From assembly GCA_963778555.1 (NCBI GenBank), contig CAVZUR010000005.1, positions 33,756 to 97,755 on the forward strand: DNA of 64,000 nt, given 5' to 3'. Under the pieces are notes generated by a model. The model had not been told where the DNA came from. It made no database searches and worked only from the letters and a program-made list of their open reading frames with translations. A program made the position numbers and the translations under genes. Below, in pieces: positions 20,408 through 63,200 of the stretch; position 1 is the first letter of the stretch, and each line of letters begins with the position of its first letter. The DNA comes from Candidatus Moraniibacteriota bacterium. GTDB taxonomy: Bacteria; Patescibacteriota; Minisyncoccia; Moranbacterales; UBA1568.

Positions 20408-22030
20408 ATGTCCAAGCCATTTTTCATCACGACTGCCATCGACTATGTGAACGCGGCTCCGCATGTGGGACATGCCGTGGAAAAAGTCCTGACCGATGTC
20501 GTTGCGCGCTATCATCGCTTGGCGGACGATGAAACCTATTTCCTCACTGGGTCGGACGAGAATAGTCTGAAAAATGTGCAGGCTGCGGAAAAGGCTGGCA
20601 AGCCAGTTGCGGAATTTGTTGCGGAGAATGCAGAGTCTTTCAAAAAACTGAAAGAGAGTCTGAATCTTAATTTCAATCAATTCATCCGCACGACGGAGCC
20701 GCGGCATTTCGAGGGGGCAAAAAAAATGTGGAATGCTTTCAAAAAGGAAGACCTCTACAAGAAGGCGTACCACGGACTCTACTGCGTCGGTTGCGAAGAG
20801 TTCAAGTCGGAAAAAGACTTGGCCGATGGCCTCTGTCCCGACCACAAGGTCGCACCGGAAGCTGTGGAGGAAGAGAACTGGTTCTTCAAACTTTCGACGT
20901 ATCAGGATCAGCTCTTAGAACTTGTTCTGAATGACAAGCTGAAGGTCTATCCCGACTATCGGAAGAATGAAGTTCTGTCATTCATTCGGATGGGGCTCGA
21001 GGATTTCTCTATCTCGCGCTCCGTGGCGCGGGCCAAAGGCTGGGGCGTGCCGGTGCCGGGAGACGAGAGTCAGATCATGTATGTCTGGGTGGACGCCTTG
21101 TCGAACTACATCACCGCGCTTGACTATGCGACGGACGGTGAGCAGTATCAAAAATACTGGAACCATGCCGACGGTGAGCGCGTGCACGTTATCGGCAAAG
21201 GTATCCTGCGCTTCCATGCAATCTATTGGCCAGCGATGCTCTTGTCGGCCGGACTCCCGCTCCCGACCACCATCTACGCGCACGAATACCTGACCATCAA
21301 CGGTCAAAAAATGTCGAAGTCTTTAGGCAATGTCATCTACCCGGAAGAGTTGGTGGCGAAATATGGCGTCGATGGGACGCGCTATCTGCTCCTGACGGCG
21401 TTGCCGTACAGTAAAGACGGTGACTTGTCCTGGGAGAAAATGACGGAGAAGTACAATGCCGACCTGGCGAATGGTCTCGGCAATCTCGTTTCGCGGGTAG
21501 TAAAATTAAGTGAAAAGTTAGAAAACGAAAAAGATAAAGAGGTATATGTTTCTAAGGGGCATGCATTAGAAAATCTTAATTCGTTCCTATTCAAGTTCGA
21601 TGTTTCCGGGGCCCTTGGTGCTATATGGGTCACGGTAAAACACCTTAATGAATACCTGGCTAAGGAAGAGCCATGGAAACTTGATAGCAGTTCAAAAAAG
21701 TTTACTAGTATTCTGAAAAGAATCGCGGAGGATACTTGCTCAGATAGCGTTAGAGATTCAGCCATTTCTTCCATCAACCTCCGAAAAGATCGAATCAGCA
21801 TTGAAGACGGGGAAAGTCGAACCGCTATTTCAGCGTATCAAGTAAAAAGAGAATCGGCGGCCGCGGTGACGGACGCCGATGAGTCGGGAAGGGGATCTTC
21901 ACCCGAGGATATACCTGGTGCCTCCGCCAGAGACGACCAGGACGAAAGCGATGGCGGCGAGTGTTCCTGCGATGAGGAAGAATCGGACCAGGTGAGGGAT
22001 GCAGTTTCATGTGTTACTCCAGTTTGGTGA
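20408..22030 (+). CDS. metG: methionyl-tRNA synthetase (monomeric core form) with unusual acidic Cys-containing C-terminal tail
   Basis: HIGH motif (APHVGHAV), CxxC...CPDH zinc knuckle, KMSKS (QKMSKSLGNV); 540 aa. Confidence 0.9.
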   Translation: MSKPFFITTAIDYVNAAPHVGHAVEKVLTDVVARYHRLADDETYFLTGSDENSLKNVQAAEKAGKPVAEFVAENAESFKKLKESLNLNFNQFIRTTEPRHFEGAKKMWNAFKKEDLYKKAYHGLYCVGCEEFKSEKDLADGLCPDHKVAPEAVEEENWFFKLSTYQDQLLELVLNDKLKVYPDYRKNEVLSFIRMGLEDFSISRSVARAKGWGVPVPGDESQIMYVWVDALSNYITALDYATDGEQYQKYWNHADGERVHVIGKGILRFHAIYWPAMLLSAGLPLPTTIYAHEYLTINGQKMSKSLGNVIYPEELVAKYGVDGTRYLLLTALPYSKDGDLSWEKMTEKYNADLANGLGNLVSRVVKLSEKLENEKDKEVYVSKGHALENLNSFLFKFDVSGALGAIWVTVKHLNEYLAKEEPWKLDSSSKKFTSILKRIAEDTCSDSVRDSAISSINLRKDRISIEDGESRTAISAYQVKRESAAAVTDADESGRGSSPEDIPGASARDDQDESDGGECSCDEEESDQVRDAVSCVTPVW

Positions 22031-27875: not shown

Positions 27876-29392
<1,517 letters not shown>

Positions 29393-33315: not shown

Positions 33316-33332
33316 TCGGATTGAATCGATAC

Positions 33333-33372
33333 ATACTATCCCGTCCCCGTGGCGGGATAGTATTATTGTCGG
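33333..33372 (+). terminator. hairpin terminator
   Basis: ATACTATCCCG-9-nt loop-CGGGATAGTAT followed by a T-rich run (TATTATTGT). Confidence 0.5.
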
Positions 33373-33706: not shown

Positions 33707-33735
33707 TTGAAAAAAGGCTCATTTTCGGCTAGAGT
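33707..33735 (+). promoter_or_regulatory. sigma70-like promoter TTGAAA-17-TAGAGT upstream of leuS
   Basis: Hexamers and 17-nt spacing read directly from the sequence; GGGGAG RBS before 33755. Confidence 0.45.
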
Positions 33736-33754
33736 AGGGGAGTAATGCGCTGGT

Positions 33755-36294
33755 ATGGCTATGAAATACGACCCGAAAAAGATCGAAAGGAAGTGGCAGA
33801 AAGTCTGGGCAGCGGGTCATCCTGGGCCGATTGGTAAACGCGGAAAATACTCGGTGCTCGACATGTTTCCGTATCCATCGGGCGATGGGCTGCATGTCGG
33901 CCATGTCGAGAACTTCACGGCTACCGATATCTACGCGCGCTTCATGCGCTTTCAGGGCTATGAAGTGTTTCACCCGATTGGCTGGGACGCGTTCGGGCTG
34001 CCGGCCGAAAACTTCGCCATCAAGACTGGCATCCATCCGGACAAACGGACGAAGGAATCTATCAAGAATTTCACTCGGCAGATCAAATCAATCGGTCTGT
34101 CGTATGATTGGGATCGTGAACTGAATACTTCGAGTCCGGAGTATTACCGTTGGACGCAGTGGATATTTCTGTTTTTGTACAAGAACGGCCTGGCCTACAA
34201 GAAAAAAGCGAAAGTGAACTGGTGTCCGTCCTGCCAGACGGTCTTGGCCAATGAGCAGGTCATCGACGGCAAATGCGACCGCTGCGGCGATAGCGTGGTC
34301 CAAAAAGATCTGGAACAATGGTTTTTTAAGATCACGGACTTCGTCGAACAACCAGGACCAAGAGCAGCAATAAGAAAATCTCTGGTCTGCTTTCCGGTCT
34401 CGAAACCATCGACTGGCCTGAATCGACCAAGGCGGCCCAGACGCCACTGGATCGGCCGGTGCGGAGGGAGCCGAGATTGTCTTCTATGTTGCGACACCGA
34501 AGAGGAAACCAGGGTCTTCACGACGCGCATCGACACGATTTATGGCTGTACATATCTGGTCGTGGCGCCCGAGCACCCACTCGTCAATGCGCTCTCAGGA
34601 CGGATCAAGAATATAAACCGAAGTGAGAGCAATACCTTGCCGACAATCAAAGAAAAAGACAGACCTCGAACGGACTGAACTCAATAAGGAAAAGACGGGT
34701 GTGCGCTCGAAGGGCGTCGAAGCCATGCATCCGTTGACAGGTGAAGGATGCCGGTCTACGTCGCCGACTACGTACTCGGTACCTATGGTACGGGAGCGGT
34801 GATGGCGTTCCGGCACATGATAAGAGGGATTTCGAGTTTGCGAAGAAACATGACCTACTTATTAAGTATGTTGTACATCCGATTGCATTTTCTTATCAAA
34901 AATCTGCGAGGACCTGGAAAACGGTCGAGAATATACATCCAGAAAAGAGCAAAGTGGACGAAAGGTGGCTTACTGATAGACTAGAGACCAAAGGCGTCCC
35001 TTATCTTGCTGATGGAAAGCTAATCAATTCAAGAGAATTTATTGGCTGACATTGTGATGAAGCGCGGGAGAAGATGGTCGCGTGGCTGAAGAAAGAAAAA
35101 CTGGGGAAGAAAGTGGTGAATTATCGGCTGCGTGATTGGCTTATTTCCCGGCAGCGCTATTGGGGTGCGCCGATCCCAATCATCTACTGTGATGACTGTG
35201 GGGCGGTGCCGGTGCCAGAGAAAGATCTGCCCGTGAAGCTACCGACAGATGTGGATTTCCGTCCGACCGGGGAGTCGCCACTTGTCCGTTCGAAAGCCTT
35301 TCATAAAGTAAAGTGTCCGAAATGCGGCGCGAAGGCGCGGCGCGAGAGCGATACGATGGATACTTTCGTCTGTTCGAGCTGGTACTATCTGCGTTACGCT
35401 GATCCGAACAATACGAAACAGTTCGCCTCGAAGAAAGCCTCGAGAAATATCTCCCGGTGGATTTCTATATGGGTGGGGCGGAACATACGGTACTCCACCT
35501 CCTCTATGCGCGTTTTTTCACCAAAGCGCTCTGCAGCACGGCTACCTCGCTTTCGACGAGCCGTTCGTGAAACTTCGCCATCAGGGGATGATTCTCGCGG
35601 AAAACGGTCAGAAAATGTCCAAATCGAAGGGGAATGTGGTCAATCCGGATCAGGTGATCGCGGAGTTCGGCGCGGATAGTCTGCGCCTCTATGAGATGTT
35701 CATGGGGCCGATCGAGGAGATGAAGGGATGGAATACGGCGAGTATGATCGGACTGAGACGATTTCTTGGAGAAGGTCTGGAAACTTGAAACACGGATAAC
35801 GGATCAAAAATCACAGATTAGGGATAAGAATCTTGAAACCTTATTCCACAAAACGATTAAGAAAGTTACCGAGGATATAGCCGAGCTTAAATTTAATACC
35901 GCTATCAGCGCCTTGATGATTTTCGTCAATGAAATAGAAAAGGAGGAAAAGCTTTCAGTCGGCAAGTTATAGGCGACTGTTAACACTGCTCGCTCCGTTC
36001 GCACCACATATCGCGGAAGAGCTTTGGCAGCGATTAGGAGAAAAGAAATCGATCTTTCTTGCTCCCTGGCCGAAGTTTGATCCGAAAAAAATCCGTGAGG
36101 AGACGAAAACAATCGGAGTCCAAGTGAATGGCAAGGTCCGCGGTACGATTGAGCTTGCGGTCGATGCGACGGAGGCTGAAGCGAAATCGCTCGCTCTCGG
36201 CGACTCAAAGATACAGGCATTCATCGGTGGGAAACAGCTGCGGAAATGTATCTATGTGCCGGGTCGTATCCTGAATTTCGTGGTCAGCAATTAA
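33755..36294 (+). pseudogene. leuS: leucyl-tRNA synthetase, heavily disrupted (about 11 frame shifts, a 32-35 nt insertion, and one in-frame TGA)
   Basis: LeuRS sequence is recoverable end to end: HVGH region, ...WPESTKAAQT/HWIG..., [67 protein letters not shown]-terminal FAPHIAEELW. Reading it requires switching frames about 11 times. Confidence 0.85.
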
Positions 36295-46486: not shown

Positions 46487-47749
46487 GTGGCTTCGGCGAC
46501 CGCTTCAGGTGGACTCGTCATGACCGGGACCGAAGGCGCCTCGCTCGGCATCCTGCTTCCAACCGCGACCGACGGTCTCTCGACAACCACTTCTTCTGGC
46601 TCTGGTTTGGAATTGCTATCAAATGGATTAACCTTGCTGCAAGGCTGTGCGAATAATGAAGTTTTGTCATGGAACGAGTCGCTCGATCTTTGGTCCTGTA
46701 CCTCCATCGCGGGCGTCGGTGGCGTTACTGGTTCTGCCACTACCGGACAGGCTGCTTTCTGGAGTGGTACATCGACTATTGCTGGTGAGAATCAGCTTGC
46801 TACTTCTCGCGGTGGTACCGGGGTTAATGGTTCAGCAGCCGCCAATGGTTCGCTCCTCATCGGCAACGGCACGGGGTATACACTGGCGACGCTCACCCAA
46901 GGTACGGGTATCACCGTCACCAACGGCGCAGGAAGCATCACCATCGCTTCAACCCTCGGGACAAGCATCGATCTCACGACTGAAGTGACCGGCACCCTCC
47001 CAGTCGGCAATGGTGGTACTGGCGCCACCACCTTCACTGCCAATGGCGTCCTCTATGGCAACACCACCGGTGCGGTCCAAGTCACCGCCGCTGGCACGAA
47101 TGGTCAGCTCCTCCTCGGCGTTACGGCTGGTGCCCCGACCTTCGCCACCATGAGTAGCGATGCCACTATCACCAATGCTGGTGTCCTGACCATCGCCGCC
47201 AATGCTGTCGCCCTCACCACCGATACCACGGGGAACTATGTCGCGAATGTCGCGAATGGGAATGGCATCGCGGGCGGCTCAGCGGGGAGCGAAGGGGCCG
47301 CATTGACCCTCGCGATTGATCTCCTTGATTCAGCGGACGGTGCGGGCGCAGTGGCGAGCAACTCAGGTCTTGAATTTCAAGGTGCGGGATCGAATGAACT
47401 CGCCATCATCCAAGGCTGTTCCAATGGCCAAGGTATTTCCTGGGATGACACGACCAATCTTTGGCAATGTACCAGCTTCTCTGCCGGACTCGCTGGGAGT
47501 GGCACGACCGGTTATGCGACCTACTGGAGTGGCACCTCCTCCTTGGGGAGCGAGCAATTTCTCTCGACGGTCAGAGGCGGCACCGGTCTCGATGGCTCAG
47601 CGGCCGCCAATGGCACCCTCCTCATCGGCAATGGCACGGGGTATACGCTGAGCGACGTTGACCGATGGTACGGGTATTACTATCACGGAAGGCGCAGGAA
47701 GCATCACCATCGCTTCCACCCTCGGGACAAGCATCGATCTCACGACTGA
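46487..47749 (+). CDS. giant surface protein, segment 2 (continues segment 1 after the frame break)
   Basis: Same module sequence (…LIGNGTGYTLATLTQGTGITVTNGAGSITIASTLGTSIDLTTEVTGTLPVGNGG…); coding continuity with no intervening start or RBS. Confidence 0.65.
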   Translation: MASATASGGLVMTGTEGASLGILLPTATDGLSTTTSSGSGLELLSNGLTLLQGCANNEVLSWNESLDLWSCTSIAGVGGVTGSATTGQAAFWSGTSTIAGENQLATSRGGTGVNGSAAANGSLLIGNGTGYTLATLTQGTGITVTNGAGSITIASTLGTSIDLTTEVTGTLPVGNGGTGATTFTANGVLYGNTTGAVQVTAAGTNGQLLLGVTAGAPTFATMSSDATITNAGVLTIAANAVALTTDTTGNYVANVANGNGIAGGSAGSEGAALTLAIDLLDSADGAGAVASNSGLEFQGAGSNELAIIQGCSNGQGISWDDTTNLWQCTSFSAGLAGSGTTGYATYWSGTSSLGSEQFLSTVRGGTGLDGSAAANGTLLIGNGTGYTLSDVDRWYGYYYHGRRRKHHHRFHPRDKHRSHD

Positions 47750-50700
47750 AGTGACCGGCACCCTCCCAGTCGGCAATGGTGGTACCGGCGCCACCACCTT
47801 CACTGCCAATGGCGTCCTCTATGGCAACACCACCGGTGCGGTTCAAGTCACCGCCGCCGGCACGAATGGCCAACTCCTCCTCGGCGTCACCGCTGGTGCC
47901 CCGACCTTCGCCACTATGAGTAGCGATGCCTCCATCACCAATGCTGGTGTCCTGACCATCGCCGCCGATGCTGTCGCCCTCACCACCGATACCACAGGGA
48001 ACTATGTGGCCAGCCTCACCGCTGGTAACGGTATCAGTGGTACCGTCGCCAGCGAGGGAGCAACCCCGACCCTCGATATCGATCTCCTTGTCGCTGCTGA
48101 TGGCACGGGCGTCACTTCCTCCAATTCCGGTCTCGAATTCGCTGGTGCAAGCTCTGATAAGCTCGCACTCATCCAAGGCTGTTCCAATGGTCAAGGTATT
48201 TCCTGGAATGACACGACCAATCTCTGGGAATGCACCAGTTTCTCCGCCGGACTCTCCGGGAGTGGCACGACCGGTTATGCGACCTACTGGAGTGGCACCT
48301 CCTCCTTGGGGAGCGAGCAATTTCTCTCGACGGTCAGAGGTGGTACCGGTCTCGACGGTTCAGCCGCCGCCAATGGCACCCTCCTCATTGGCAATGGCAC
48401 GGGATATACGTTAGCGACCCTGACCGGTACGGCGAATGAAATTGGCATTACGAATGCCGCTGGCTCCATCACTATCGGTGTCCCGGATGACGGACTCGAC
48501 TTCACCGAATTCCAAGACACCCTCGATCTCGATGCGGCTCTCACCCTGAACCAGACCACCAATACCTGGACCCAGTCCTTCACCGGCACCACCACCACCG
48601 GCTTCGCCTACACCGCCACTTCCCTCACCACCGGCTCCGCCCTCAATGTCACTACCACCAATACCGCCACCGCCAACACCGCCCTCTCACCGGTTCAGTT
48701 CAATCTGACGAATGCTCAATCAACTACCGCCAACACCAATGGTGTCACCGGCCTCGCCGTCAACTTCACCAACAACCCGAGTGTTGCTGGTAACACGGAG
48801 TACGCGCTCCGGATCCAGAATCAGCTCACCGCGAACGTCACCGACAACGCTGTCAGTGCCCTCCTCCTCCTCGACAACGCCGACTCTACCGCGACTGGCA
48901 CCACCATCGTCACCGATGCCATCGCCATCACGAACTCAGGCGGATCGAACTTCACCAACTTCCTCAATACCCCGACCCTCGACATCAGTGCGGCGGGGGC
49001 GATCACCGGAGCGACGGGGATCACAAGCTCGGGGAACATCACGTTCTCTAGCCTCACCGCGAACTCTTTCCTCTACTCGGGTACGGGCGGTCTCCTCACC
49101 ACGACGACCGCTCCGACCAATGGCCAGCTCCTTATCGGAAGTACCGGCGTGGCTCCCGTCGCCGCGGCACTCACCCAAGGGACGGGTATCACCGTCACCA
49201 ACGGTGCAGGAAGCATCACCATCGCTTCCACCCTCGGGACGAGCGTGGACCTCACAACTGAAGTGACCGGCACCCTCCCAGTCGGCAATGGCGGTACCGG
49301 CGCGACATCGCTGACGGATCTCATCGCGTTGACGACGCATACCACGGGGAACTATGTGGCGAATGTTGCGAATGGGAACGGTATCGCGGGCGGCTCAGCG
49401 GGGAGCGAAGGGGCTTCCCTCACGCTCGCAATCGATTTACTGGATGTGGACGACAGTACGGGAGCGATTGCGAGCAACTCCGGCCTCGAATTCCAGGGCG
49501 CCGGTTCCAATGAGCTGACTCTCCTTCAAGGTTGTGCTGACACCGAGATTCTCGCTTGGGACAATACGACCAATGAATGGGAATGTGCGACAGTATCCGG
49601 CGTCGGCGGACTCTCTGGAAGCGGTACCACGAATTACGCTACCTATTGGACTGGGACCTCAACGTTAGGTGCTGAGGCTCAGCTCGATGAAACTCGCGGT
49701 GGTACCGGGATTGGAACGTATGCGACGGGTGACGTTCTCTATGCGAGTGGTGTGAATACCCTCGCCCGACTTGCGGCTGGTACTGACGGACAAGTACTGG
49801 TTCTGTCGAGTGGCGTACCGGTGTGGAGTACGATCGGAGGCGGAGGCGGAGGCGGAGTGACCGCTGACTCCCTCGACTTCACCGAATTCCAAGACACCCT
49901 CGATCTCGATGCGGCCCTCACCCTGAACCAGACCACCAATACCTGGACCCAGTCCTTCACCGGCACCACCACCACCGGCTTCGCCTACACCGCCACTTCC
50001 CTCACCACTGGCTCCGCCCTCAATGTCACTACCACCAATACCGCCACCGCCAACACCGCCCTCTCACCGGTTCAGTTCAATCTGACGAATGCTCAATCAA
50101 CTACCGCCAACACCAATGGTGTCACCGGCCTCGCCGTCAACTTCACCAACAACCCGAGTGTTGCTGGTAACACGGAGTACGCGCTCCGGATCCAGAATCA
50201 GCTCACCGCGAACGTCACCGACAACGCTGTCAGTGCCCTCCTCCTCCTCGACAACGCCGACTCTACCGCGACTGGCACCACCATCGTCACCGATGCCATC
50301 GCCATCACGAACTCAGGCGGATCGAACTTCACCAACTTCCTCAATACCCCAACCCTCGACATCAGTGCGGCGGGGGCCATCACTGGAGCGACGGGGATCA
50401 CCTCGAGTGGCTCTATCACCTTTAGTGCCTTTACCAGTAATGGTGGTCCGCTCTACACCAACGGTTCGGGTGTCATCGCTCAAACCACTGCCGGGACAGC
50501 AACCCAAGTCCTCCATGGTGGTACTGCTCCAAGCTTCTCCGCGGTCTCCCTCACCACCGATGTCTCGGGCACCCTCCCAGTCGGCAATGGCGGTACTGGC
50601 GCCACCACCTTCACTGCCAATGGCGTCCTCTATGGCAACACCACCGGTGCGGTCCAAGTCACCGCCGCTGGCACGAATGGTCAGCTCCTCCTCGGCGTCA

Positions 50701-52724
50701 CGGCTGGTGCCCCGACCTTCGCCACCATGAGTAGCGATGCCTCCATCACCAATGCTGGTGTCCTGACCATCGCCGCCGATGCTGTCGCTCTCACCACCGA
50801 TACCACGGGGAACTATGTCGCGAATGTCCAGACGAGCGTCCTCACCGGTCTCACCGGTGGCTCAGCGGGGAGCGAAGGAGCGTCTCTCACCCTCAACCTC
50901 GATTACTCCCAAGCCCTGACCGGGGATGTGGCCTTGGGTGCGAATGCAGGTGTCTTCGGTCAGTCCGGCTTCGCCTTCGAAGGCTCGAGTGCTGATACGA
51001 TCGAGACCTATCTCGTCGTCACCAATCCTACTGCCTCGGACAAGACGATTACGTTCCCGGATGCATCCGGCACCGTTGTCCTGTCAGGTGGGACACTGTT
51101 CACGGCCGCTGGCACCTCCGGTTCCAGCCAAACCATCTCGCAGGGGGATACTCTGACTATCGCCGCTGGTACCGGTATCACGACCACCGGCGGAGCGACT
51201 GATACCATCACCATCGCTTCAACCCTCGGGACAAGCATCGCCGCAGCTGAAGTCGATGCAGATGCTCTCGACTTCACCGAATTCCAAGACACCCTCGATC
51301 TCGATGCGGCTCTCACCCTGAACCAGACCACCAATACCTGGACCCAGTCCTTCACGGGCACCACCACCACCGGCTTCGCCTACACCGCCACTTCCCTCAC
51401 CACGGGCTCCGCCCTCAATGTCACCACCACCAATACCGCCACCGCCAACACCGCCCTCTCACCGGTTCAGTTCAATCTGACGAATGCTCAATCAACTACC
51501 GCCAACACCAATGGTGTCACCGGCCTCGCCGTCAACTTCACCAACAACCCGAGTGTTGCCGGTAACACGGAGTACGCGCTCCGGATCCAGAATCAGCTCA
51601 CCGCGAACGTCACTGACAACGCTGTCAGTGCTCTCCTCCTCCTCGACAACGCCGACTCTACCGCGACTGGCACCACCATCGTCACCGATGCCATCGCCAT
51701 CACGAACTCAGGCGGATCGAACTTCACCAACTTCCTCAATACCCCGACCCTCGACATCAGTGCGGCGGGGGCGATCACCGGAGCGACGGGGATCACAAGC
51801 TCGGGGAACATCACGTTCTCTAGCCTCACCGCGAACTCTTTCCTCTACTCGGGTACGGGCGGTCTCCTCACCACGACCACCGCTCCGACCAATGGTCAGC
51901 TCCTTATCGGTTGTACCGGTGTGGCTCCAGTCGCCGCGGCACTTACCCAAGGCACGGGTATCACCGTCACCAACGGTGCGGGAAGCATCACCATCGCTTC
52001 TACCCTCGGGACGAGCGTGGACCTCACAACTGAAGTGACCGGCACCCTCCCAGTCGGCAATGGTGGTACTGGCGCCACCACCTTCACTGCCAATGGCGTT
52101 CTCTATGGCAACACCACCGGTGCGGTCCAAGTCACCGCCGCTGGCACGAATGGTCAGCTCCTCCTCGGCGTCACGGCTGGTGCCCCGACCTTCGCCACCA
52201 TGAGTAGCGATGCCTCCATCACCAATGCTGGTGTCCTGACCATCGCCGCCGATGCTGTCGCTCTCACCACCGATACCACGGGGAACTATGTCGCGAATGT
52301 CCAGACGAGCGTCCTCACCGGTCTCACCGGTGGCTCAGCGGGGAGCGAAGGAGCGTCTCTCACCCTCAACCTCGATTACTCCCAAGCCCTGACCGGGGAT
52401 GTGGCCTTGGGTGCGAATGCAGGTGTCTTCGGTCAGTCCGGCTTCGCCTTCGAAGGCTCGAGTGCTGATACGATCGAGACCTATCTCGTCGTCACCAATC
52501 CTACTGCCTCGGACAAGACGATTACGTTCCCCAACGTGTCCGGCACCATCGTCCTTCTGGATGGCGCTCAGACCTTACGAGTGCGACCTGGAACCGACGG
52601 CTATCGGTGCACAGTATGGCGGCAGGCGGTACTTAACACGAGTGCTTCAACCGGCATCCCCACCATTTCGGCTGGTACCTGGAGCGTCTCATGCCACGCT
52701 CGGCGCTGCTTCGATCACCGCTGA
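47658..52724 (+). CDS. giant surface protein, segment 3 (1688 aa; +1 break at about 47651 relative to segment 2)
   Basis: Longest uninterrupted run; contains at least three full modules. Confidence 0.7.
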   Translation: MTDGTGITITEGAGSITIASTLGTSIDLTTEVTGTLPVGNGGTGATTFTANGVLYGNTTGAVQVTAAGTNGQLLLGVTAGAPTFATMSSDASITNAGVLTIAADAVALTTDTTGNYVASLTAGNGISGTVASEGATPTLDIDLLVAADGTGVTSSNSGLEFAGASSDKLALIQGCSNGQGISWNDTTNLWECTSFSAGLSGSGTTGYATYWSGTSSLGSEQFLSTVRGGTGLDGSAAANGTLLIGNGTGYTLATLTGTANEIGITNAAGSITIGVPDDGLDFTEFQDTLDLDAALTLNQTTNTWTQSFTGTTTTGFAYTATSLTTGSALNVTTTNTATANTALSPVQFNLTNAQSTTANTNGVTGLAVNFTNNPSVAGNTEYALRIQNQLTANVTDNAVSALLLLDNADSTATGTTIVTDAIAITNSGGSNFTNFLNTPTLDISAAGAITGATGITSSGNITFSSLTANSFLYSGTGGLLTTTTAPTNGQLLIGSTGVAPVAAALTQGTGITVTNGAGSITIASTLGTSVDLTTEVTGTLPVGNGGTGATSLTDLIALTTHTTGNYVANVANGNGIAGGSAGSEGASLTLAIDLLDVDDSTGAIASNSGLEFQGAGSNELTLLQGCADTEILAWDNTTNEWECATVSGVGGLSGSGTTNYATYWTGTSTLGAEAQLDETRGGTGIGTYATGDVLYASGVNTLARLAAGTDGQVLVLSSGVPVWSTIGGGGGGGVTADSLDFTEFQDTLDLDAALTLNQTTNTWTQSFTGTTTTGFAYTATSLTTGSALNVTTTNTATANTALSPVQFNLTNAQSTTANTNGVTGLAVNFTNNPSVAGNTEYALRIQNQLTANVTDNAVSALLLLDNADSTATGTTIVTDAIAITNSGGSNFTNFLNTPTLDISAAGAITGATGITSSGSITFSAFTSNGGPLYTNGSGVIAQTTAGTATQVLHGGTAPSFSAVSLTTDVSGTLPVGNGGTGATTFTANGVLYGNTTGAVQVTAAGTNGQLLLGVTAGAPTFATMSSDASITNAGVLTIAADAVALTTDTTGNYVANVQTSVLTGLTGGSAGSEGASLTLNLDYSQALTGDVALGANAGVFGQSGFAFEGSSADTIETYLVVTNPTASDKTITFPDASGTVVLSGGTLFTAAGTSGSSQTISQGDTLTIAAGTGITTTGGATDTITIASTLGTSIAAAEVDADALDFTEFQDTLDLDAALTLNQTTNTWTQSFTGTTTTGFAYTATSLTTGSALNVTTTNTATANTALSPVQFNLTNAQSTTANTNGVTGLAVNFTNNPSVAGNTEYALRIQNQLTANVTDNAVSALLLLDNADSTATGTTIVTDAIAITNSGGSNFTNFLNTPTLDISAAGAITGATGITSSGNITFSSLTANSFLYSGTGGLLTTTTAPTNGQLLIGCTGVAPVAAALTQGTGITVTNGAGSITIASTLGTSVDLTTEVTGTLPVGNGGTGATTFTANGVLYGNTTGAVQVTAAGTNGQLLLGVTAGAPTFATMSSDASITNAGVLTIAADAVALTTDTTGNYVANVQTSVLTGLTGGSAGSEGASLTLNLDYSQALTGDVALGANAGVFGQSGFAFEGSSADTIETYLVVTNPTASDKTITFPNVSGTIVLLDGAQTLRVRPGTDGYRCTVWRQAVLNTSASTGIPTISAGTWSVSCHARRCFDHR

Positions 52725-52945
52725 CTCCCTCGACTTCACCGAATTCCAAGACACCCTCGATCTCGATGCGGCCCTCACCCTGAACCAGACCACCAATACC
52801 TGGACCCAGTCCTTCACCGGCACCACCACCACCGGCTTCGCCTACACCGCCACTTCCCTCACCACGGGCTCCGCCCTCAATGTCACCACCACCAATACCG
52901 CCACCGCCAACACCGCCCTCTCACCGGTTCAGTTCAATCTGACGA

Positions 52946-55900
52946 ATGCTCAATCAACTACCGCCAACACCAATGGTGTCACCGGTCTCGCCGTCAACTT
53001 CACCAACAACCCGAGTGTTGCTGGTAACACGGAGTACGCACTCCGGATCCAGAATCAGCTCACCGCGAACGTCACGGACAACGCTGTCAGTGCCCTCCTC
53101 CTCCTCGACAACGCCGACTCTACCGCGACTGGCACCACCATCGTCACCGATGCCATCGCCATCACGAACTCAGGCGGATCGAACTTCACCAACTTCCTCA
53201 ATACCCCGACTCTCGACATCAGTGCGGCGGGGGCGATCACCGGAGCGACGGGGATCACGAGCTCGGGGAACATCACGTTCTCTAGCCTTACCGCCAACTC
53301 TTTCCTCTACTCGGGTACGGGCGGTCTCCTCACCACGACCACCGCTCCGACCAATGGTCAGCTCCTTATCGGAAGTACCGGTGTGGCTCCAGTCGCGGCG
53401 GCACTTGACCCAAGGCACTGGTATCACCGTCACCAACGGTGCGGGAAGCATCACCATCGCTTCGACCCTCGGGACGAGCGTGGACCTCACAACTGAAGTG
53501 ACCGGCACCCTCCCAGTCGGCAATGGCGGTACCGGCGCGACATCGCTGACGGATCTCATCGCGTTGACGACGCATACCACAGGGAACTATGTGGCCAGCC
53601 TCACCGCTGGCAACGGTATCAGTGGTACCGTCGCCAGCGAGGGAGCAACCCCGACCCTCGATATCGATCTCCTTGTCGCTGCTGATGGCACGGGCGTCAC
53701 TTCCTCCAATTCCGGTCTCGAATTCGCTGGTGCAAGCTCTGATAAGCTCGCACTCATCCAAGGCTGTTCCAATGGTCAGGGTATTTCTTGGAATGACACG
53801 ACCAATCTCTGGGAATGCACCAGTTTCTCCGCCGGACTCTCCGGGACGGGGACTACGGGCTACAACGCGTATTGGAGTGGAACGACATCGCTCGGATCAG
53901 AACAATTCGTCGCGACAGTCCGAGGCGGCACCGGTCTCGATGGCTCAGCCGCCGCCAATGGCACCCTCCTCATTGGCAATGGCACGGGATATACGTTAGC
54001 GACCTTGACCGATGGTACGGGTATTACTATCACGGAAGGTGCAGGAAGCATCACCATCGCTTCCACCCTCGGGACGAGCGTGGACCTCACAACTGAAGTG
54101 ACCGGCACCCTCCCAGTCGGCAATGGTGGTACCGGCGCGACATCGCTGACGGATCTCATCGCGTTGACGACGCATACCACAGGGAACTATGTGGCCAGCC
54201 TCACCGCTGGCAACGGTATCAGTGGTACCGTCGCCAGCGAGGGAGCAACCCCGACCCTCGATATCGATCTCCTTGTCGCTGCTGATGGCACGGGCGTCAC
54301 TTCCTCCAATTCCGGTCTCGAATTCGCTGGTGCAAGCTCTGATAAGCTCGCACTCATCCAAGGCTGTTCCAATGGTCAAGGTATTTCTTGGAATGACACG
54401 ACCAATCTCTGGGAATGCACCAGTTTCTCCGCCGGACTCTCCGGGAGTGGCACGACCGGTTATGCGACCTACTGGAGTGGCACCTCCTCCTTGGGGAGCG
54501 AGCAATTTCTCTCGACGGTCAGAGGTGGTACCGGTCTCGACGGTTCAGCCGCCGCCAATGGCACCCTCCTCATTGGCAATGGCACGGGATATACGTTAGC
54601 GACCCTGACCGGTACGGCGAATGAAATTGGCATTACGAATGCCGCTGGCTCCATCACTATCGGTGTCCCGGATGACGGACTCGACTTCACCGAATTCCAA
54701 GACACCCTCGATCTCGATGCCGCCCTCACCCTGAACCAGACCACCAATACCTGGACCCAGTCCTTCACCGGCACCACCACCACCGGCTTCGCCTACACCG
54801 CCACTTCCCTCACCACTGGCTCCGCCCTCAATGTCACTACCACCAATACCGCCACCGCCAACACCGCCCTCTCACCGGTTCAGTTCAATCTGACGAATGC
54901 TCAATCAACTACCGCCAACACCAATGGTGTCACCGGCCTCGCCGTCAACTTCACCAACAACCCGAGTGTTGCTGGTAACACGGAGTACGCACTCCGGATC
55001 CAGAATCAGCTCACCGCGAACGTCACCGACAACGCTGTCAGTGCCCTCCTCCTCCTCGACAACGCCGACTCTACCGCGACTGGCACCACCATCGTCACCG
55101 ATGCCATCGCCATCACGAACTCAGGCGGATCGAACTTCACCAACTTCCTCAATACCCCAACCCTCGACATCAGTGCGGCGGGGGCCATCACTGGAGCGAC
55201 GGGGATCACCTCGAGTGGCTCTATCACCTTTAGTGCCTTTACCAGTAATGGTGGTCCGCTCTACACCAACGGTTCGGGTGTCATCGCTCAAACCACTGCC
55301 GGGACAGCAACCCAAGTCCTCCATGGTGGTACTGCTCCAAGCTTCTCCGCGGTCTCCCTCACCACCGATGTCTCGGGCACCCTCCCAGTCGGCAATGGCG
55401 GTACTGGCGCCACCACCTTCACTGCCAATGGCGTCCTCTATGGCAACACCACCGGTGCGGTCCAAGTCACCGCCGCCGGCACGAATGGTCAGCTCCTCCT
55501 CGGCGTCACGGCTGGTGCCCCGACCTTCGCCACCATGAGTAGCGATGCCTCCATCACCAATGCTGGTGTCCTGACTATCGCCGCCGATGCTGTCGCCCTC
55601 ACCACCGATACCACGGGGAACTATGTCGCGAATGTCCAGACGAGCGTCCTCACCGGTCTCACCGGTGGCTCAGCGGGGAGCGAAGGAGCGTCTCTCACCC
55701 TCAACCTCGATTACTCCCAAGCCCTGACCGGGGATGTGGCCTTGGGTGCGAATGCAGGTGTCTTCGGTCAGTCCGGCTTCGCCTTCGAAGGCTCGAGTGC
55801 TGATACGATCGAGACCTATCTCGTCGTCACCAATCCTACTGCCTCGGACAAGACGATTACGTTCCCCAACGTGTCCGGCACCATCGCCCTTCTGGATGGC

Positions 55901-57418
55901 GCTCAGACCTTTACGAGTGCGACCTGGAACGCGACGGCTATCGGTGCACAGTATGGCGGCACCGGTATTAACACGAGTGCTTCAACCGGCATCCCCACCA
56001 TTTCGGCTGGTACCTGGAGCGTCTCAGCCACGCTCGGCGCTGCTTCCATCACCGCTGACTCCCTCGACTTCACCGAATTCCAAGACACCCTCGATCTCGA
56101 TGCGGCCCTCACCCTGAACCAGACCACCAATACCTGGACCCAGTCCTTCACCGGCACCACCACCACCGGCTTCGCCTACACCGCCACTTCCCTCACCACT
56201 GGCTCCGCCCTCAATGTCACCACCACCAATACCGCCACCGCCAACACCGCCCTCTCACCGGTTCAGTTCAATCTGACCAATGCTCAATCAACTACCGCCA
56301 ACACCAATGGTGTCACCGGCCTCGCCGTCAACTTCACCAACAACCCGAGTGTTGCTGGTAACACGGAGTACGCACTCCGGATCCAGAATCAGCTCACCGC
56401 GAACGTCACCGACAACGCTGTCAGTGCCCTCCTCCTCCTCGACAACGCCGACTCTACCGCGACTGGCACCACCATCGTCACGGATGCCATCGCCATCACG
56501 AACTCAGGCGGATCGAACTTCACCAACTTCCTCAATACCCCAACCCTCGACATCAGTGCGGCGGGGGCCATCACCGGAGCGACGGGGATCACCTCGAGTG
56601 GCTCTATCACCTTTAGTGCCTTTACCAGTAATGGTGGTCCGCTCTACACCAACGGTTCGGGTGTCATCGCTCAAACCACTGCCGGGACAGCAACCCAAGT
56701 CCTCCATGGTGGTACTGCTCCAAGCTTCTCCGCGGTCTCCCTCACCACCGATGTCTCGGGCACCCTCCCAGTCGGCAATGGCGGTACTGGCGCCACCACC
56801 TTCACTGCCAATGGCGTTCTCTATGGCAACACCACCGGTGCGGTCCAAGTCACCGCCGCCGGCACGAATGGTCAGCTCCTCCTCGGCGTCACGGCTGGTG
56901 CCCCGACCTTCGCCACCATGAGTAGCGATGCCTCCATCACCAATGCTGGTGTCCTGACTATCGCCGCCGATGCTGTCGCCCTCACCACCGATACCACGGG
57001 GAACTATGTGGCGAATGTTGCGAATGGGAACGGTATCGCGGGCGGCTCAGCGGGGAGCGAAGGGGCTTCCCTCACGCTCGCAATCGATTTACTGGATGTG
57101 GACGACAGTACGGGAGCGATTGCGAGCAACTCCGGCCTCGAATTCCAGGGCGCCGGTTCCAATGAGCTGACCTTACTGCAGGGCTGTTCCAATGGCCAAG
57201 GTATTTCTTGGGATGATACGACTATGGAATGGGAATGCACCAGTTTCTCCGCCGGACTCTCCGGGAGTGGCACGACCGGTTATGCGACCTACTGGAGTGG
57301 CACCTCCTCCTTCGGGAGCGAGCAATTTCTCTCGACGGTCAGAGGTGGTACCGGTATCGACGGTTCAGCCGCCGCCAATGGCACCCTCCTCATTGGCAAT
57401 GGCACGGGATATACCTAG
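52946..57418 (+). CDS. giant surface protein, segment 4 (1490 aa ORF; genuine module sequence from about 53405)
   Basis: Bridged from segment 3 through the 52399-53496 ORF by clustered indels at 52560-52700 and about 53405. Confidence 0.65.
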   Translation: MLNQLPPTPMVSPVSPSTSPTTRVLLVTRSTHSGSRISSPRTSRTTLSVPSSSSTTPTLPRLAPPSSPMPSPSRTQADRTSPTSSIPRLSTSVRRGRSPERRGSRARGTSRSLALPPTLSSTRVRAVSSPRPPLRPMVSSLSEVPVWLQSRRHLTQGTGITVTNGAGSITIASTLGTSVDLTTEVTGTLPVGNGGTGATSLTDLIALTTHTTGNYVASLTAGNGISGTVASEGATPTLDIDLLVAADGTGVTSSNSGLEFAGASSDKLALIQGCSNGQGISWNDTTNLWECTSFSAGLSGTGTTGYNAYWSGTTSLGSEQFVATVRGGTGLDGSAAANGTLLIGNGTGYTLATLTDGTGITITEGAGSITIASTLGTSVDLTTEVTGTLPVGNGGTGATSLTDLIALTTHTTGNYVASLTAGNGISGTVASEGATPTLDIDLLVAADGTGVTSSNSGLEFAGASSDKLALIQGCSNGQGISWNDTTNLWECTSFSAGLSGSGTTGYATYWSGTSSLGSEQFLSTVRGGTGLDGSAAANGTLLIGNGTGYTLATLTGTANEIGITNAAGSITIGVPDDGLDFTEFQDTLDLDAALTLNQTTNTWTQSFTGTTTTGFAYTATSLTTGSALNVTTTNTATANTALSPVQFNLTNAQSTTANTNGVTGLAVNFTNNPSVAGNTEYALRIQNQLTANVTDNAVSALLLLDNADSTATGTTIVTDAIAITNSGGSNFTNFLNTPTLDISAAGAITGATGITSSGSITFSAFTSNGGPLYTNGSGVIAQTTAGTATQVLHGGTAPSFSAVSLTTDVSGTLPVGNGGTGATTFTANGVLYGNTTGAVQVTAAGTNGQLLLGVTAGAPTFATMSSDASITNAGVLTIAADAVALTTDTTGNYVANVQTSVLTGLTGGSAGSEGASLTLNLDYSQALTGDVALGANAGVFGQSGFAFEGSSADTIETYLVVTNPTASDKTITFPNVSGTIALLDGAQTFTSATWNATAIGAQYGGTGINTSASTGIPTISAGTWSVSATLGAASITADSLDFTEFQDTLDLDAALTLNQTTNTWTQSFTGTTTTGFAYTATSLTTGSALNVTTTNTATANTALSPVQFNLTNAQSTTANTNGVTGLAVNFTNNPSVAGNTEYALRIQNQLTANVTDNAVSALLLLDNADSTATGTTIVTDAIAITNSGGSNFTNFLNTPTLDISAAGAITGATGITSSGSITFSAFTSNGGPLYTNGSGVIAQTTAGTATQVLHGGTAPSFSAVSLTTDVSGTLPVGNGGTGATTFTANGVLYGNTTGAVQVTAAGTNGQLLLGVTAGAPTFATMSSDASITNAGVLTIAADAVALTTDTTGNYVANVANGNGIAGGSAGSEGASLTLAIDLLDVDDSTGAIASNSGLEFQGAGSNELTLLQGCSNGQGISWDDTTMEWECTSFSAGLSGSGTTGYATYWSGTSSFGSEQFLSTVRGGTGIDGSAAANGTLLIGNGTGYT

Positions 57419-60213: not shown

Positions 60214-60266
60214 TACCATCACCATCGCTTCCACCCTCGGGACGAGCATCGCCGCAGCTGAAGTCG

Positions 60267-63200
60267 ATGCAATCTCTCGACTTCACCGAATTCCAAGACA
60301 CCCTCGATCTCGATGCGGCCCTCACCCTGAACCAGACCACCAATACCTGGACCCAGTCCTTCACGGGCACCACCACCACCGGCTTCGCCTACACCGCCAC
60401 TTCCCTCACCACTGGCTCCGCCCTCAATGTCACTACCACCAATACCGCGACCACCAACACCGCCCTCTCACCGGTTCAATTCAATCTGACCAATGCTCAA
60501 TCAACCACCGCCAACACCAATGGTGTCACCGGTCTCGCCGTCAACTTCACCAACAACCCGAGTGTCGCTGGTAACACGGAGTACGCACTCCGGATCCAGA
60601 ATCAGCTCACCGCGAACGTCACCGACAACGCTGTCAGTGCTCTCCTCCTCCTCGACAACGCCGACTCTACCGCGACTGGCACCACCATCGTCACCGATGC
60701 CATCGCCATCACGAACTCAGGCGGATCGAACTTCACCAACTTCCTCAATACCCCGACCCTCGACATCAGTGCGGCGGGGGCGATCACTGGAGCGACGGGG
60801 ATCACCTCGAGTGGCTCTATCACCTTCAGCGCCTTTACCAGTAATGGTGGTCCGCTCTACACCAACGGTTCGGGTGTCATCGCTCAAACCACTGCCGGGA
60901 CAGCAACCCAAGTCCTCCATGGCGGTACTGCTCCAAGCTTCTCCGCGGTCTCCCTCACCACCGATGTCTCGGGCACCCTCCCAGTCGGCAATGGTGGTAC
61001 TGGCGCCACCACCTTCACTGCCAATGGCGTTCTCTATGGCAACACCACCGGTGCGGTCCAAGTCACCGCCGCCGGCACGAATGGTCAGCTCCTCCTCGGT
61101 GTCACGGCTGGTGCGCCAGTTTTTGCAACTATGAGCACGGACGCCACCATCACCAATGCTGGTGTCCTGACCATCGCCGCCAATGCCGTCGCCCTCACCA
61201 CCGATACCACGGGGAACTATGTGGCGAATGTTGCGAATGGGAATGGTATCGCGGGCGGCTCAGCGGGGAGCGAGGGCGCCGCACTGACCCTAGCAATCGA
61301 TCTCTTGGATGTGGATGACAGCGTTGGGTCCATAACCAGCAACTCCGGTCTCGAATTCCAGGGCGCCGGTTCCAATGAGCTGACCCTGCTGCAGGGTTGC
61401 GCGAATCTCGAGGTATTGGCGTGGGATGATACGACTATGGAGTGGGAGTGTACGGCAATCTCTGGCACTGGTGTGGTCACTGGTTCTGGTACAACTGGGC
61501 AAGTCACTTATTGGAGCGGAACGACGACTCTGACTGGCGAGAATCAGCTGGCTCCTCTCCGTGGCGGTACCGGTATCAATGGAAGTGCGGCCGCCAACGG
61601 CACCCTCCTCATCGGCAATGGCACGGGGTATACTCTGGCGACGTTGACCGACGGGACCGGCGTCACCATCACGGAAGGTGCGGGGAGCATCACCATCGCT
61701 TCGACCCTCGGCACGACCATCGCCGCCGCTGAAGTCGATGCAGATGCTCTCGACTTCACCGAATTCCAAGACACCCTCGATCTCGATGCGGCCCTCACCC
61801 TGAACCAGACCACCAATACCTGGACCCAGTCTTTCACGGGCACCACCACCACCGGCTTCGCCTACACCGCCACTTCCCTCACCACTGGCTCCGCCCTCAA
61901 TGTCACTACCACCAATACCGCCACCGCCAACACCGCCCTCTCACCGGTTCAGTTCAATCTGACGAATGCTCAATCAACCGCCGCCAACACCAATGGTGTC
62001 ACCGGCCTCGCCGTCAACTTCACCAACAACCCGAGTGTTGCCGGCAACACGGAGTACGCGCTCCGGATCCAGAATCAGCTCACCGCGAACGTCACCGACA
62101 ACGCTGTCAGTGCTCTCCTCCTCCTCGACAACGCCGACTCTACCGCGACTGGCACCACCATCGTCACCGATGCCATCGCCATCACGAACTCAGGCGGATC
62201 GAACTTCACCAACTTCCTCAATACCCCAACCCTCGACATCAGTGCGGCGGGGGCCATCACCGGAGCGACGGGGATCACGAGCTCGGGGAACATCACGTTC
62301 TCTAGCCTTACCGCCAACTCCTTCCTCTACTCGGGTACGGGCGGTCTCCTGACGACGACGACCGCTCCGACCAATGGCCAGCTCCTTATCGGAAGTACCG
62401 GCGTGGCTCCCGTCGCCGCGGCACTTACCCAAGGGACGGGTATCACCGTCACGAACGGTGCAGGAAGCATCACCATCGCTTCGACCTTGGGCACGACCAT
62501 CGCGGCCGCTGAAGTCGATGCCGACTCCCTCGACTTCACCGAATTCCAAGACACCCTCGACCTCGACGCCGACCTCACCTTAAACCAGACCACCAATACC
62601 TGGAGCCAGTCCTTCACCGGCACCACCACCACCGGCTTCGCCTACACCGCCACTTCCCTCACCACTGGCTCCGCCCTCAATGTCACCACCACCAATACCG
62701 CCACGGCCAACACCGCCCTCTCACCGGTTCAGTTCAATCTGACCAATGCTCAATCCACCCTCGCGAATACAGCTGGCATTAATGGAGTGCAAGTCAACTT
62801 CACCAACAACCCATCCATTGCGGGAAACACCGAAAATGCGGTTCGTATTCAGAACCAGCTCACCGCGAACGTCACCGACAACGCTGTCTCCTCCCTCCTC
62901 CTCCTCGACAACGCCGATACAACCGCGGCAGGGAGTACGGTTGTTACTGACGCGCTCCGTATCACCAATAGCGGTGCCATCGCCGCCGGCATCACCAATG
63001 GCATCACGTTCGCCTCGGCCACGATCGATACCGGTATCAATTTCTCAGCGGCACCAACCACCAACATCTTGAACACGCCGAGCATTGATATCTCGACAGC
63101 CGGTGCCATCACCGGAGCGACAGGATTACCTCTTCGGGTACCATCACCTTCTCTGGTCTCTCCACAGCCGGTATCGTCACCAACACCTGCGGGCGGTGTC

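What the first reader, a model, noticed from the sequence alone, without database searches (positions are those of the whole stretch)
33755..36294. The sole leuS in view is shattered: about 11 frame shifts, a 32-35 nt insertion and an in-frame TGA, yet it keeps a good promoter
LeuRS peptide segments are perfectly recognisable but lie in alternating frames. Lesions sit at about 34352-34386 (insertion of 32-35 nt between …KITDFVEQ and LLSGLETIDWPE…), 34444 (+1), 34457 (+1), 34502 (-1), ~34600-34660 (+1), 34746 (-1), 34808 (-1), 35047-35049 (in-frame TGA), ~35430 (-1), ~35532 (+2), ~35765 (+1) and ~35965 (+1). At 35047-35049 TGA replaces a codon in …[17 protein letters not shown]… The amino-acid segments show no obvious missense decay, and a TTGAAA-17-TAGAGT promoter plus RBS are intact. 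Either an essential gene has recently become a pseudogene, implying a second leuS elsewhere or a symbiont-style loss, or this 2.5-kb stretch has a locally very high indel error rate. Neighbouring ileS (3 kb), glmS and glyQS contain none.
Basis: seen in the sequence. Interest (0 to 1): 0.7.

Follow-up and report, generated by a model that had tools for sequence, protein, structure and literature searches.

The report
leuS broken by sequencing indel errors
The leucyl-tRNA synthetase gene really is shattered in this sequence, but the damage looks like single-base sequencing or assembly errors, which also hit other essential genes nearby, so it is most likely an ordinary intact gene badly rendered.

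Summary
leuS (33755-36294, +) is cut by at least 11 single-base frame shifts, more likely 13, all between 34350 and 35960, plus a TGA at 35047. The "32-35 nt insertion" is wrong: it is the normal linker read after one -1 shift.

The pseudogene reading is not supported:
- Every lesion is a +1 or -1 (6 insertions, 7 deletions).
- At 117 near-invariant LeuRS columns in the damaged zone, the only 3 mismatches touch frame-shift breakpoints.
- The frame-corrected product matches the bacterial LeuRS model end to end.
- The upstream promoter-like element is almost identical to that of relatives.
- The gene sits at the conserved atp operon-DUF4349-leuS-glmS position, where relatives have intact genes.

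leuS is not alone. atpA has three +1 shifts, metG one, nirK one, and the giant repeat gene downstream at least five, shown by comparison with its own in-frame repeat copies. UGA is an ordinary stop here (7 of 33 genes).

Best explanation (about 0.85): residual indel errors in a poorly polished, probably long-read, metagenome contig from a Moranbacteria-like organism, with leuS as a hot spot. The hot spot itself is unexplained. No independent assembly of this species exists to settle it, so reads are needed.

The parts
33755..36294 (+). leuS (bacterial-type leucyl-tRNA synthetase), conceptual product of about 844-846 aa once the frames are repaired
   Evidence: Frame-aware alignments. The repaired product matches TIGR00396 leuS_bact over positions 1-842 of 843, at 1028 bits against a cut-off of 548. 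The ORFs as they stand (307 aa and 201 aa) fall below that cut-off.
33707..33742 (+). Promoter-like TTGAAA-17-TAGAGT followed by GGGGAG
   Evidence: Consensus scan, 9 of 12 matches, about 2.4 such sites expected by chance in the region. The block is nearly invariant in L002-L004, while sequence further upstream is not conserved.
   Evidence: The linker TRTKSSNKKISGLLSG is collinear with that of relatives when read in the next frame.
34441..34441 (+). +1 insertion (AAQ|RHWIGR)
34460..34461 (+). +1 insertion. CGG T[G]CG GAG restores the conserved RSEGAE.
   Evidence: The base-level placement is my reading of the sequence.
34491..34495 (+). -1 deletion (VFYV A|DTEEE)
34616..34642 (+). Three close shifts (+1, +1, -1) that restore RIKNIN-EV-EQYL-..KKKTDL, against RIKNWKEVEKYLMATKKKTDL in relatives
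   Evidence: references L002, L004 and L005 agree. One search merged them into a single +1 at 34640.
34743..34744 (+). -1 deletion (GGT GA[A] AGG; AAA to AA)
34802..34803 (+). -1 deletion (GTG AT[G] GGC; GGG to GG)
34820..35115 (+). Variable loop between the PAHDxRD and RLRDW motifs, 98 aa here. A natural insertion site, not a lesion.
   Evidence: Loop length is 64-105 aa in relatives. L001 and many Moranbacteria LeuRS carry a NUDIX domain here.
35047..35049 (+). In-frame TGA, possibly a compensating -1 (about 35046) and +1 (about 35056) pair
   Evidence: TGA is a normal stop codon in this window.
35437..35443 (+). -1 deletion (AAA GC[C] CTC; CCC to CC)
35526..35535 (+). -1 deletion (FFTKAL|QHGYL)
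35762..35762 (+). +1 insertion (CGA [T]TTC; TT to TTT)
35940..35961 (+). +1 insertion (EEKL..|ASYRRLL)
27887..29392 (+). atpA (F1 alpha subunit) with three +1 insertions at about 28130, 28758 and 28801. Otherwise 85-95% identical to relatives.
   Evidence: Pfam domains are split across two ORFs. tblastn hits fall in frames 2, 3, 2. Frame-aware alignment.
20408..21845 (+). metG with a +1 insertion at about 21716 (AAA to AAAA)
2508..3736 (+). nirK (copper nitrite reductase) with a -1 deletion at about 3485 (GEI|FDTVY)
   Evidence: The fused sequence aligns without a break to PDB 2zoo.
46487..64000 (+). Giant repeat-protein gene(s). Single-base indels break the frame at about 47650 (+A), 52700 (+T), 53405 (+G), 57412 (-1) and 60265 (-2).
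   Evidence: Frame switches. Base-level comparison with in-frame paralogous repeat copies.

Best explanation
In the organism, leuS is an ordinary, intact, expressed, bacterial-type leucyl-tRNA synthetase gene at its ancestral position in a Moranbacteria-like (Patescibacteria) genome. The 13 or so single-base insertions and deletions are errors in the consensus sequence of this contig, most likely from a long-read or hybrid metagenome assembly that was not fully polished. The same errors occur at a lower density across the window, in nirK, metG, atpA and the giant repeat gene. The stretch 34350-35960 is a local hot spot.

Shown here: the lesions, their single-base type, the lack of substitution decay, the lesions in other genes, the conserved synteny and the conserved promoter-like element.

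Inferred: that the cause is technical, and which technology was used. Why this 1.6-kb stretch is so much worse than its surroundings is not explained. Low local read support, or short-read polishing that failed where reads from related populations cross-map, would both fit.
For: **1. Lesion spectrum.** All 13 leuS shifts are +1 or -1 (6 insertions, 7 deletions). There are no longer indels. The one length difference from relatives lies in a naturally variable loop.

**2. No substitution decay.**
- Of 188 columns at least 95% conserved across 78 relatives, the window differs at 3, all next to frame-shift breakpoints. Intact relatives differ at 0-1.
- Of 516 columns invariant in the 6 closest relatives, about 18 real and mostly conservative differences remain. 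Intact relatives show 7-26 in a leave-one-out test.
- With 5 to 10 substitutions per indel, neutral decay would have changed about 10-20 of the 117 conserved columns in the zone (P no more than 0.008 down to 3e-6).

**3. Same lesion type in other genes of the window.**
- atpA has three +1 shifts inside an otherwise intact atp operon, and metG has one +1.
- nirK has one -1.
- The giant repeat gene has at least five. Each is visible as a single-base difference from in-frame sister repeats.

**4. An intact gene underneath.**
- The repaired product matches TIGR00396 end to end, at 1028 bits against a cut-off of 548. The HIGH and KMSKS motifs and the editing-domain motifs are all present.
- Codon bias persists in every fragment.

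**5. Position and expression signal.**
- The order atp operon-DUF4349-leuS-glmS is conserved with L002 and L004, whose leuS genes are intact.
- The upstream TTGAAA-17-TAGAGT-GGGGAG block is nearly identical to that of relatives.

**6. Relatives and precedent.**
- All of the roughly 120 closest LeuRS proteins in the public database are full length.
- Another CPR (candidate phyla radiation) contig with a Flye-style name (contig_26151, 214 kb, from ENA and NCBI like this one) also has leuS split by one frame shift.
- Assembly-derived false pseudogenes are well documented (PMC11017572; PMC8103633).
Against: - No reads and no independent assembly of this species are available. The best public match is 79% identical, and the window's own genome was not among the loci returned. 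The artefact is therefore inferred, not observed.
- The error density is about 70 times higher in the leuS hot spot than elsewhere in the window, and I cannot explain this from the sequence.
- The longest homopolymers in the gene (A7, T6, A6) are untouched. Several insertions are not in homopolymers at all. This does not fit the classic homopolymer-driven error profile of 454, Ion Torrent or older Nanopore data.
- In residues 181-420 the window is about 10-15 points less identical to relatives than they are to one another. Only part of this is explained by garbled residues next to the shifts.
Confidence: 0.85

Rival explanations
1. Genuine recent pseudogene. leuS, and by the same logic atpA and metG, has really been inactivated in this population. 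The function is supplied by a second copy elsewhere in the genome or by a host, in the manner of a symbiont.
For: The ORF is unquestionably disrupted in the deposited sequence. CPR bacteria are reduced episymbionts, so dependence on a host is conceivable (general knowledge). The middle of the gene is somewhat more divergent than expected. The rest of the 228-kb contig and the rest of the genome could not be searched.
Against: - Conserved residues show no excess change.
- Only single-base indels occur, in balanced numbers. Real bacterial pseudogenes show a bias towards deletions and a wide range of indel sizes (general knowledge, Mira, Ochman & Moran 2001).
- This is the syntenic ancestral copy, and its promoter block is conserved.
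- Identical lesions hit atpA in the middle of an intact atp operon, and metG as well. Losing LeuRS, MetRS and the ATP synthase alpha subunit together, with no other decay, is implausible.
- A tRNA-Leu gene is present at 41087-41170.
Confidence: 0.08
2. The frame shifts are real, and the cell reads through them by programmed ribosomal frameshifting, transcriptional slippage or RNA editing.
For: The expression signals are conserved and each fragment keeps its codon bias. Rescue of frame-shifted genes by transcriptional slippage at long poly(A) tracts is known in insect endosymbionts (general knowledge, Tamas et al. 2008).
Against: - The 13 sites share no slippery motif, and none lies in a long homopolymer.
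- The sites are not conserved. All close relatives have uninterrupted ORFs at these positions.
- No structured RNA family was detected in the region.
- Thirteen recoding events in one gene would be unprecedented.
Confidence: 0.01
3. The in-frame TGA reflects UGA recoding (genetic code 4 or 25), as in some CPR lineages.
For: Gracilibacteria and Absconditabacteria within the CPR read UGA as glycine (general knowledge).
Against: TGA ends 7 of 33 confident genes here, including ileS. Long conserved genes contain no in-frame TGA under table 11. Relatives have Leu at that position, not Gly or Trp. A -1/+1 indel pair explains the local sequence better.
Confidence: 0.01

Closest known systems
False pseudogenes from indel errors in long-read or low-coverage assemblies (Cooley & Wright 2024, PMC11017572; the frameshift-correction problem in Nanopore MAGs, PMC8103633; Watson & Warr 2019, from memory)
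   Same: Single-base indels fragment conserved genes into pieces that stay recognisable. Several essential genes on one contig are affected. The translated pieces are otherwise well conserved.
   Different: The density is very uneven here: about 8 indels per kb in leuS against about 0.1 per kb elsewhere. The longest homopolymers are spared. The sequencing platform is unknown.
Bacterial LeuRS (TIGR00396 leuS_bact), Moranbacteria clade
   Same: After frame repair the match is full length. The HIGH (HVGH) and KMSKS motifs, the CP1 editing motifs (TTRIDT, GTGAVMGVPAHD) and the anticodon-binding and C-terminal domains are present. The gene sits in the same genomic neighbourhood as in its closest relatives.
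   Different: The deposited sequence has no intact ORF. The loop after the editing domain is 98 aa, against 64-71 aa in most relatives.
True pseudogenes of reductive genomes (for example Mycobacterium leprae and insect endosymbionts)
   Same: A disrupted reading frame of a once-functional gene.
   Different: Those show raised non-synonymous change, nonsense substitutions and a deletion-biased range of indel sizes. They rarely affect aminoacyl-tRNA synthetases. None of this is seen here.
Naturally split LeuRS of Aquifex aeolicus (alpha and beta subunits)
   Same: LeuRS encoded in more than one ORF.
   Different: That case has one clean split into two complete genes, each with its own start. Here there are about 14 fragments with no starts.

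Membership tests
Bacterial leucyl-tRNA synthetase (TIGR00396 leuS_bact) | Full-length match above the curated cut-off | tested here: met
   The frame-repaired product scores 1028.5 bits against a cut-off of 548.4, over model positions 1-842 of 843. The raw ORFs score 348 and 185 bits, below the cut-off.
Bacterial leucyl-tRNA synthetase (TIGR00396 leuS_bact) | Class I signature motifs HIGH and KMSKS, and the CP1 editing-domain motifs | tested here: met
   HVGH, KMSKS, TTRIDTIYG and GTGAV[M]GVPAHD are present and aligned with those of relatives.
Bacterial leucyl-tRNA synthetase (TIGR00396 leuS_bact) | One uninterrupted ORF in the deposited sequence | tested here: not met
   11-13 frame shifts and one TGA.
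Sequencing or assembly indel artefact | Lesions are single-base indels only, with no excess of substitutions | tested here: met
Sequencing or assembly indel artefact | The same lesion type in other conserved or essential genes of the contig | tested here: met
   atpA three, metG one, nirK one, giant repeat gene at least five.
Sequencing or assembly indel artefact | Reads or an independent assembly give the intact sequence | not testable with these tools
   No reads are available. No protein more than 82% identical exists in the public database. The window's own contig could not be retrieved.
True bacterial pseudogene | Relaxed selection: excess changes at conserved residues and nonsense substitutions | tested here: not met
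   0-3 of 117 conserved columns changed in the lesion zone, against 10-20 expected. There is one TGA, which an indel pair can explain.
True bacterial pseudogene | Indel spectrum biased towards deletions and of variable size | tested here: not met
   6 insertions and 7 deletions, all of one base.
True bacterial pseudogene | A functional copy elsewhere in the genome | not testable with these tools
   Only this window is available. It holds no second leuS. This copy is the syntenic one.
Programmed frameshifting or recoding | A shared slippery or stimulatory signal, and conservation of the shift site in relatives | tested here: not met
   The sites share no motif. Relatives have continuous ORFs. 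No RNA family was found.
UGA-recoding genetic code (table 4 or 25) | TGA is not used as a stop, and in-frame TGA occurs in conserved genes | tested here: not met
   TGA is the stop codon of 7 of 33 genes.

The most novel reading that the evidence does not exclude
The indels are real. A Moranbacteria-like episymbiont carries frame-disrupted leuS, metG and atpA that were inactivated very recently by an indel-only mutational process. It would then survive either on gene products supplied by a host, or by an unknown mechanism that tolerates or corrects frame shifts on a large scale.
Probability: 0.03. Interest if true: 0.8.

Novelty: not a real feature. Interest (0 to 1): 0.08.

Why it matters
Taken at face value, this contig says a CPR bacterium lacks LeuRS, MetRS and the ATP synthase alpha subunit. 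That would feed false claims of gene loss or host dependence into metabolic reconstructions of a group already known for reduced genomes.

Recognising the pattern flags the whole assembly as needing polishing or frame-shift-aware annotation. The pattern is single-base indels only, no substitution decay, several essential genes hit, and conserved synteny and promoter. Nothing new biologically follows from the leuS lesions themselves.

Tried and rejected
- **Independent assembly of the same species.** Two searches of the 5.8-billion-protein database, with the clean N-terminal 199 aa and with the repaired full-length protein, gave best non-self hits of 82% and 79%. The genome-contig scan gave at best 78%. 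There is no independent copy to compare with.
- **Retrieving the window's own contig** for its name or technology.
- **NUDIX remnant.** I tested whether the extra 30 or so residues at 34855-35000 are a decayed NUDIX insertion like that of L001. Only the last 12-15 residues resemble L001, and the loop length is naturally variable. It is not a lesion.
- **Chimeric join at leuS.** Rejected at the level of gene order, because synteny on both sides matches L002 and L004. The sliding identity profile gives no clear switch of nearest relative.
- **RNA elements.** I looked for a T-box or other leader, or a recoding RNA, around leuS. There were no Rfam hits.
- **Shared motif at the lesion sites**, such as a methylation site or slippery sequence. 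None is apparent.
- **Minus-strand gene upstream of leuS.** The hits there are antisense shadows of leuS.
- **Region 14.7-16.1 kb.** The frame switches the HMM reported there come from minus-strand genes, not frame shifts.

Full report
**What is in the sequence**

The ORF map of 33.0-37.0 kb shows LeuRS-like peptides scattered over all three + frames between 33755 and 36294. I aligned the DNA to LeuRS of a relative with a frame-aware dynamic-programming aligner. The relative was L001, an ENA contig whose N-terminal fragment is 81% identical.

The alignment gave 11 frame shifts plus an in-frame TGA at 35047-35049. The shifts lie at about 34352 (-1), 34441 (+1), 34460 (+1), 34491 (-1), 34640 (+1), 34743 (-1), 34802 (-1), 35437 (-1), 35526 (-1), 35762 (+1) and 35955 (+1).

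A codon-usage HMM trained on intact genes of the window recovered nearly the same frame switches independently. With a lower frame-shift penalty, references L002, L004 and L005 all resolve the lesion near 34640 into three: +1, +1 and -1 within about 25 nt. This restores RIKNIN-EV-EQYL, against RIKNWKEVEKYL in relatives. That makes 13 shifts.

All lesions lie within 34350-35960. The first 600 nt and the last 330 nt of the gene are clean.

**Two corrections to the observation**

The '32-35 nt insertion' is not an insertion. Read in the next frame, the stretch gives TRTKSSNKKISGLLSGLETIDWPE, which is collinear with the linker of every close relative. It is one -1 shift.

The TGA can be read as a compensating pair. 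ATT GG(C) CTG ACA TTG (T)GAT GAA gives IGLTLDEAREKM, against SGLTSEEAREKM in relatives. This is my reading and is not proven.

The extra residues at about 34855-35000 sit in a loop that is naturally variable. The loop is 64-105 aa in relatives and 98 aa here. It is not a lesion.

**Who the organism is, and what relatives look like**

The scan of one genome per species returned 80 loci. The closest, at 73-78% identity, are Candidatus Moraniibacteriota (Patescibacteria) MAGs. The window's own genome was not among them. The nine closest loci checked have a single uninterrupted leuS of 810-851 codons.

A search of the 5.8-billion-protein database with the repaired protein found about 120 full-length relatives of 799-1118 aa. 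The best is 79% identical. No independent assembly of this species exists, so there is no intact twin to compare with.

**Mutational decay or error?**

I aligned the repaired product with 78 relatives.
- Of 188 columns at least 95% conserved, the window deviates at three (S236A, Y294T, L593A). All three touch a frame-shift breakpoint, so they reflect where the aligner placed the break. Intact relatives deviate at 0-1.
- Of 516 columns invariant in the six closest relatives, the window differs at 29. Eleven of these are placeholders or lie next to a shift. The remaining 18 or so are mostly conservative. Leave-one-out counts for the intact relatives are 7-26.
- If 13 indels had accumulated by neutral decay, with 5-10 substitutions per indel, 10-20 of the 117 conserved columns in the zone should have changed (P no more than 0.008 down to 3e-6).

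Other points agree.
- The lesions are six insertions and seven deletions, all of one base. This is unlike the deletion-biased, size-variable spectrum of real pseudogenes (general knowledge).
- The repaired protein matches the NCBIfam equivalog TIGR00396 over positions 1-842 of 843, at 1028 bits against a cut-off of 548.
- The TTGAAA-17-TAGAGT-GGGGAG block upstream is almost invariant among the window, L002, L003 and L004, while sequence further upstream is not conserved.
- The gene order atp operon-DUF4349-leuS-glmS is shared with L002 and L004. This is therefore the ancestral copy, not a decaying duplicate.

**leuS is not alone**

- **atpA.** Pfam shows the ATP synthase alpha subunit split across two ORFs. 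tblastn and the frame-aware alignment show three +1 insertions at about 28130, 28758 and 28801. The protein is otherwise 85-95% identical to relatives and lies inside an intact atp operon.
- **metG** has a +1 at about 21716.
- **nirK** has a -1 at about 3485. The fused sequence aligns without a break to a solved copper nitrite reductase, PDB 2zoo.
- **The giant repeat gene** (46.5-64 kb) changes frame five or six times. At each switch the DNA differs from in-frame sister repeats by a single inserted or deleted base, for example CTG[A]GCGACG, CTT[G]ACCC and TCTCA[T]GCC.

The window therefore carries a background of single-base indels. I found 5 in about 44 kb outside leuS and the repeat gene, and at least 5 in the 17-kb repeat gene. 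The 1.6-kb hot spot in leuS stands far above this background (binomial P about 1e-15).

ileS, glmS, glyQS, atpD and the other genes with homologues in the related loci are each read in a single frame.

**Other readings**

- **UGA recoding is excluded.** TGA terminates 7 of 33 confident genes, including ileS.
- **Programmed frameshifting or slippage is not supported.** The sites share no motif, none is in a long homopolymer, relatives have continuous ORFs, and no Rfam family is found.
- **A true pseudogene with a second copy elsewhere cannot be excluded formally.** It would also need simultaneous, decay-free inactivation of atpA and metG.

**Most likely mechanism**

This part is inference. I think these are residual consensus errors in a long-read or hybrid metagenome assembly.

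Another CPR contig in the same public sources has a Flye-style name (contig_26151, 214 kb). Its leuS is likewise split by one frame shift. The literature documents that assembler, platform and coverage create spurious pseudogenes (PMC11017572), and that Nanopore MAGs need frame-shift correction (PMC8103633).

Some things do not fit neatly.
- The longest homopolymers in leuS are untouched.
- Several insertions are not in homopolymers.
- The roughly 70-fold local excess is unexplained. A local drop in read support, or failed short-read polishing where reads from related populations cross-map onto a conserved gene, would fit, but neither can be tested here.
- Residues 181-420 are also 10-15 points more divergent from relatives than expected. 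Only part of this comes from garbled residues near the shifts.

**Verdict**

The 'shattered essential gene' is most probably not a biological feature. Confidence that it is an artefact is about 0.85, against about 0.08 for a true pseudogene. Interest is low. Read mapping over the listed coordinates would settle it.

Noticed in passing
window 34820-35115; L001 7150-7560; proteins P0134, P0140, P0211, P0229 and others: The LeuRS loop after the editing domain, between the PAHDxRD and RLRDW motifs, is an insertion hot spot in Moranbacteria. At least 20 of the 120 closest LeuRS (938-1118 aa) carry a NUDIX domain according to precomputed Pfam annotation. Others carry an alpha/beta-hydrolase, GIY-YIG or nucleotidyltransferase domain. 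I confirmed the position of the insert only for L001. The window has a 98-aa loop with no recognisable domain.
   Followed up: partly
window 46487-64000: Giant repeat-protein gene(s) with about 60% GC and strongly negative GC skew. The modules are about 1.4 kb and carry the motifs LLIGNGTGYTLATLT..GTGITIT and LDFTEFQDTLDLDAALTLNQTTNTW. There are no significant Pfam hits. The frame is broken 5-6 times by single-base indels relative to sister repeats. It is probably one very large surface protein.
   Followed up: partly
window 27887-29392: atpA (F1 alpha subunit) carries three +1 insertions (about 28130, 28758 and 28801) inside an otherwise intact atpB-E-F-H-A-G-D-C operon.
   Followed up: yes
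window 20408-21845: metG has a +1 insertion at about 21716 (AAA to AAAA). The last 42 or so residues are in another frame, and the called ORF runs on to a false stop at 22030.
   Followed up: yes
window 2508-3736: A copper-containing nitrite reductase (nirK) in a Patescibacteria-like genome, split by a -1 deletion at about 3485.
   Followed up: yes
L001 6842-6861; L082 5990-6030: Two other CPR contigs each have leuS split once near the same A-rich 'K(E/G)EVEKY' stretch. One has a MEGAHIT-style name (k141) and one a Flye-style name (contig_26151). These may be errors at an error-prone site or real splits. I did not resolve this.
   Followed up: partly
window 33707-33742 and the homologous positions in L002-L004: The promoter-like block TTGAAAAAAGGCTC..TTT.GGCTAGAGT.GGGGAG is almost invariant across four Moranbacteria species. 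The -10-like hexamer directly abuts the Shine-Dalgarno-like GGGGAG, so a transcript starting the usual 6-8 nt downstream would lack most of it. The leader may be very short, or the element may have another role.
   Followed up: partly
window 33316-33706: About 390 nt of apparently non-coding sequence upstream of the leuS promoter block. It has no Rfam hit and is not conserved in relatives. The minus-strand ORF hits over the start of leuS (from about 33695) are antisense shadows of leuS.
   Followed up: partly
window 41087-41170 (-): tRNA-Leu (CAA), the only tRNA gene in the window.
   Followed up: no
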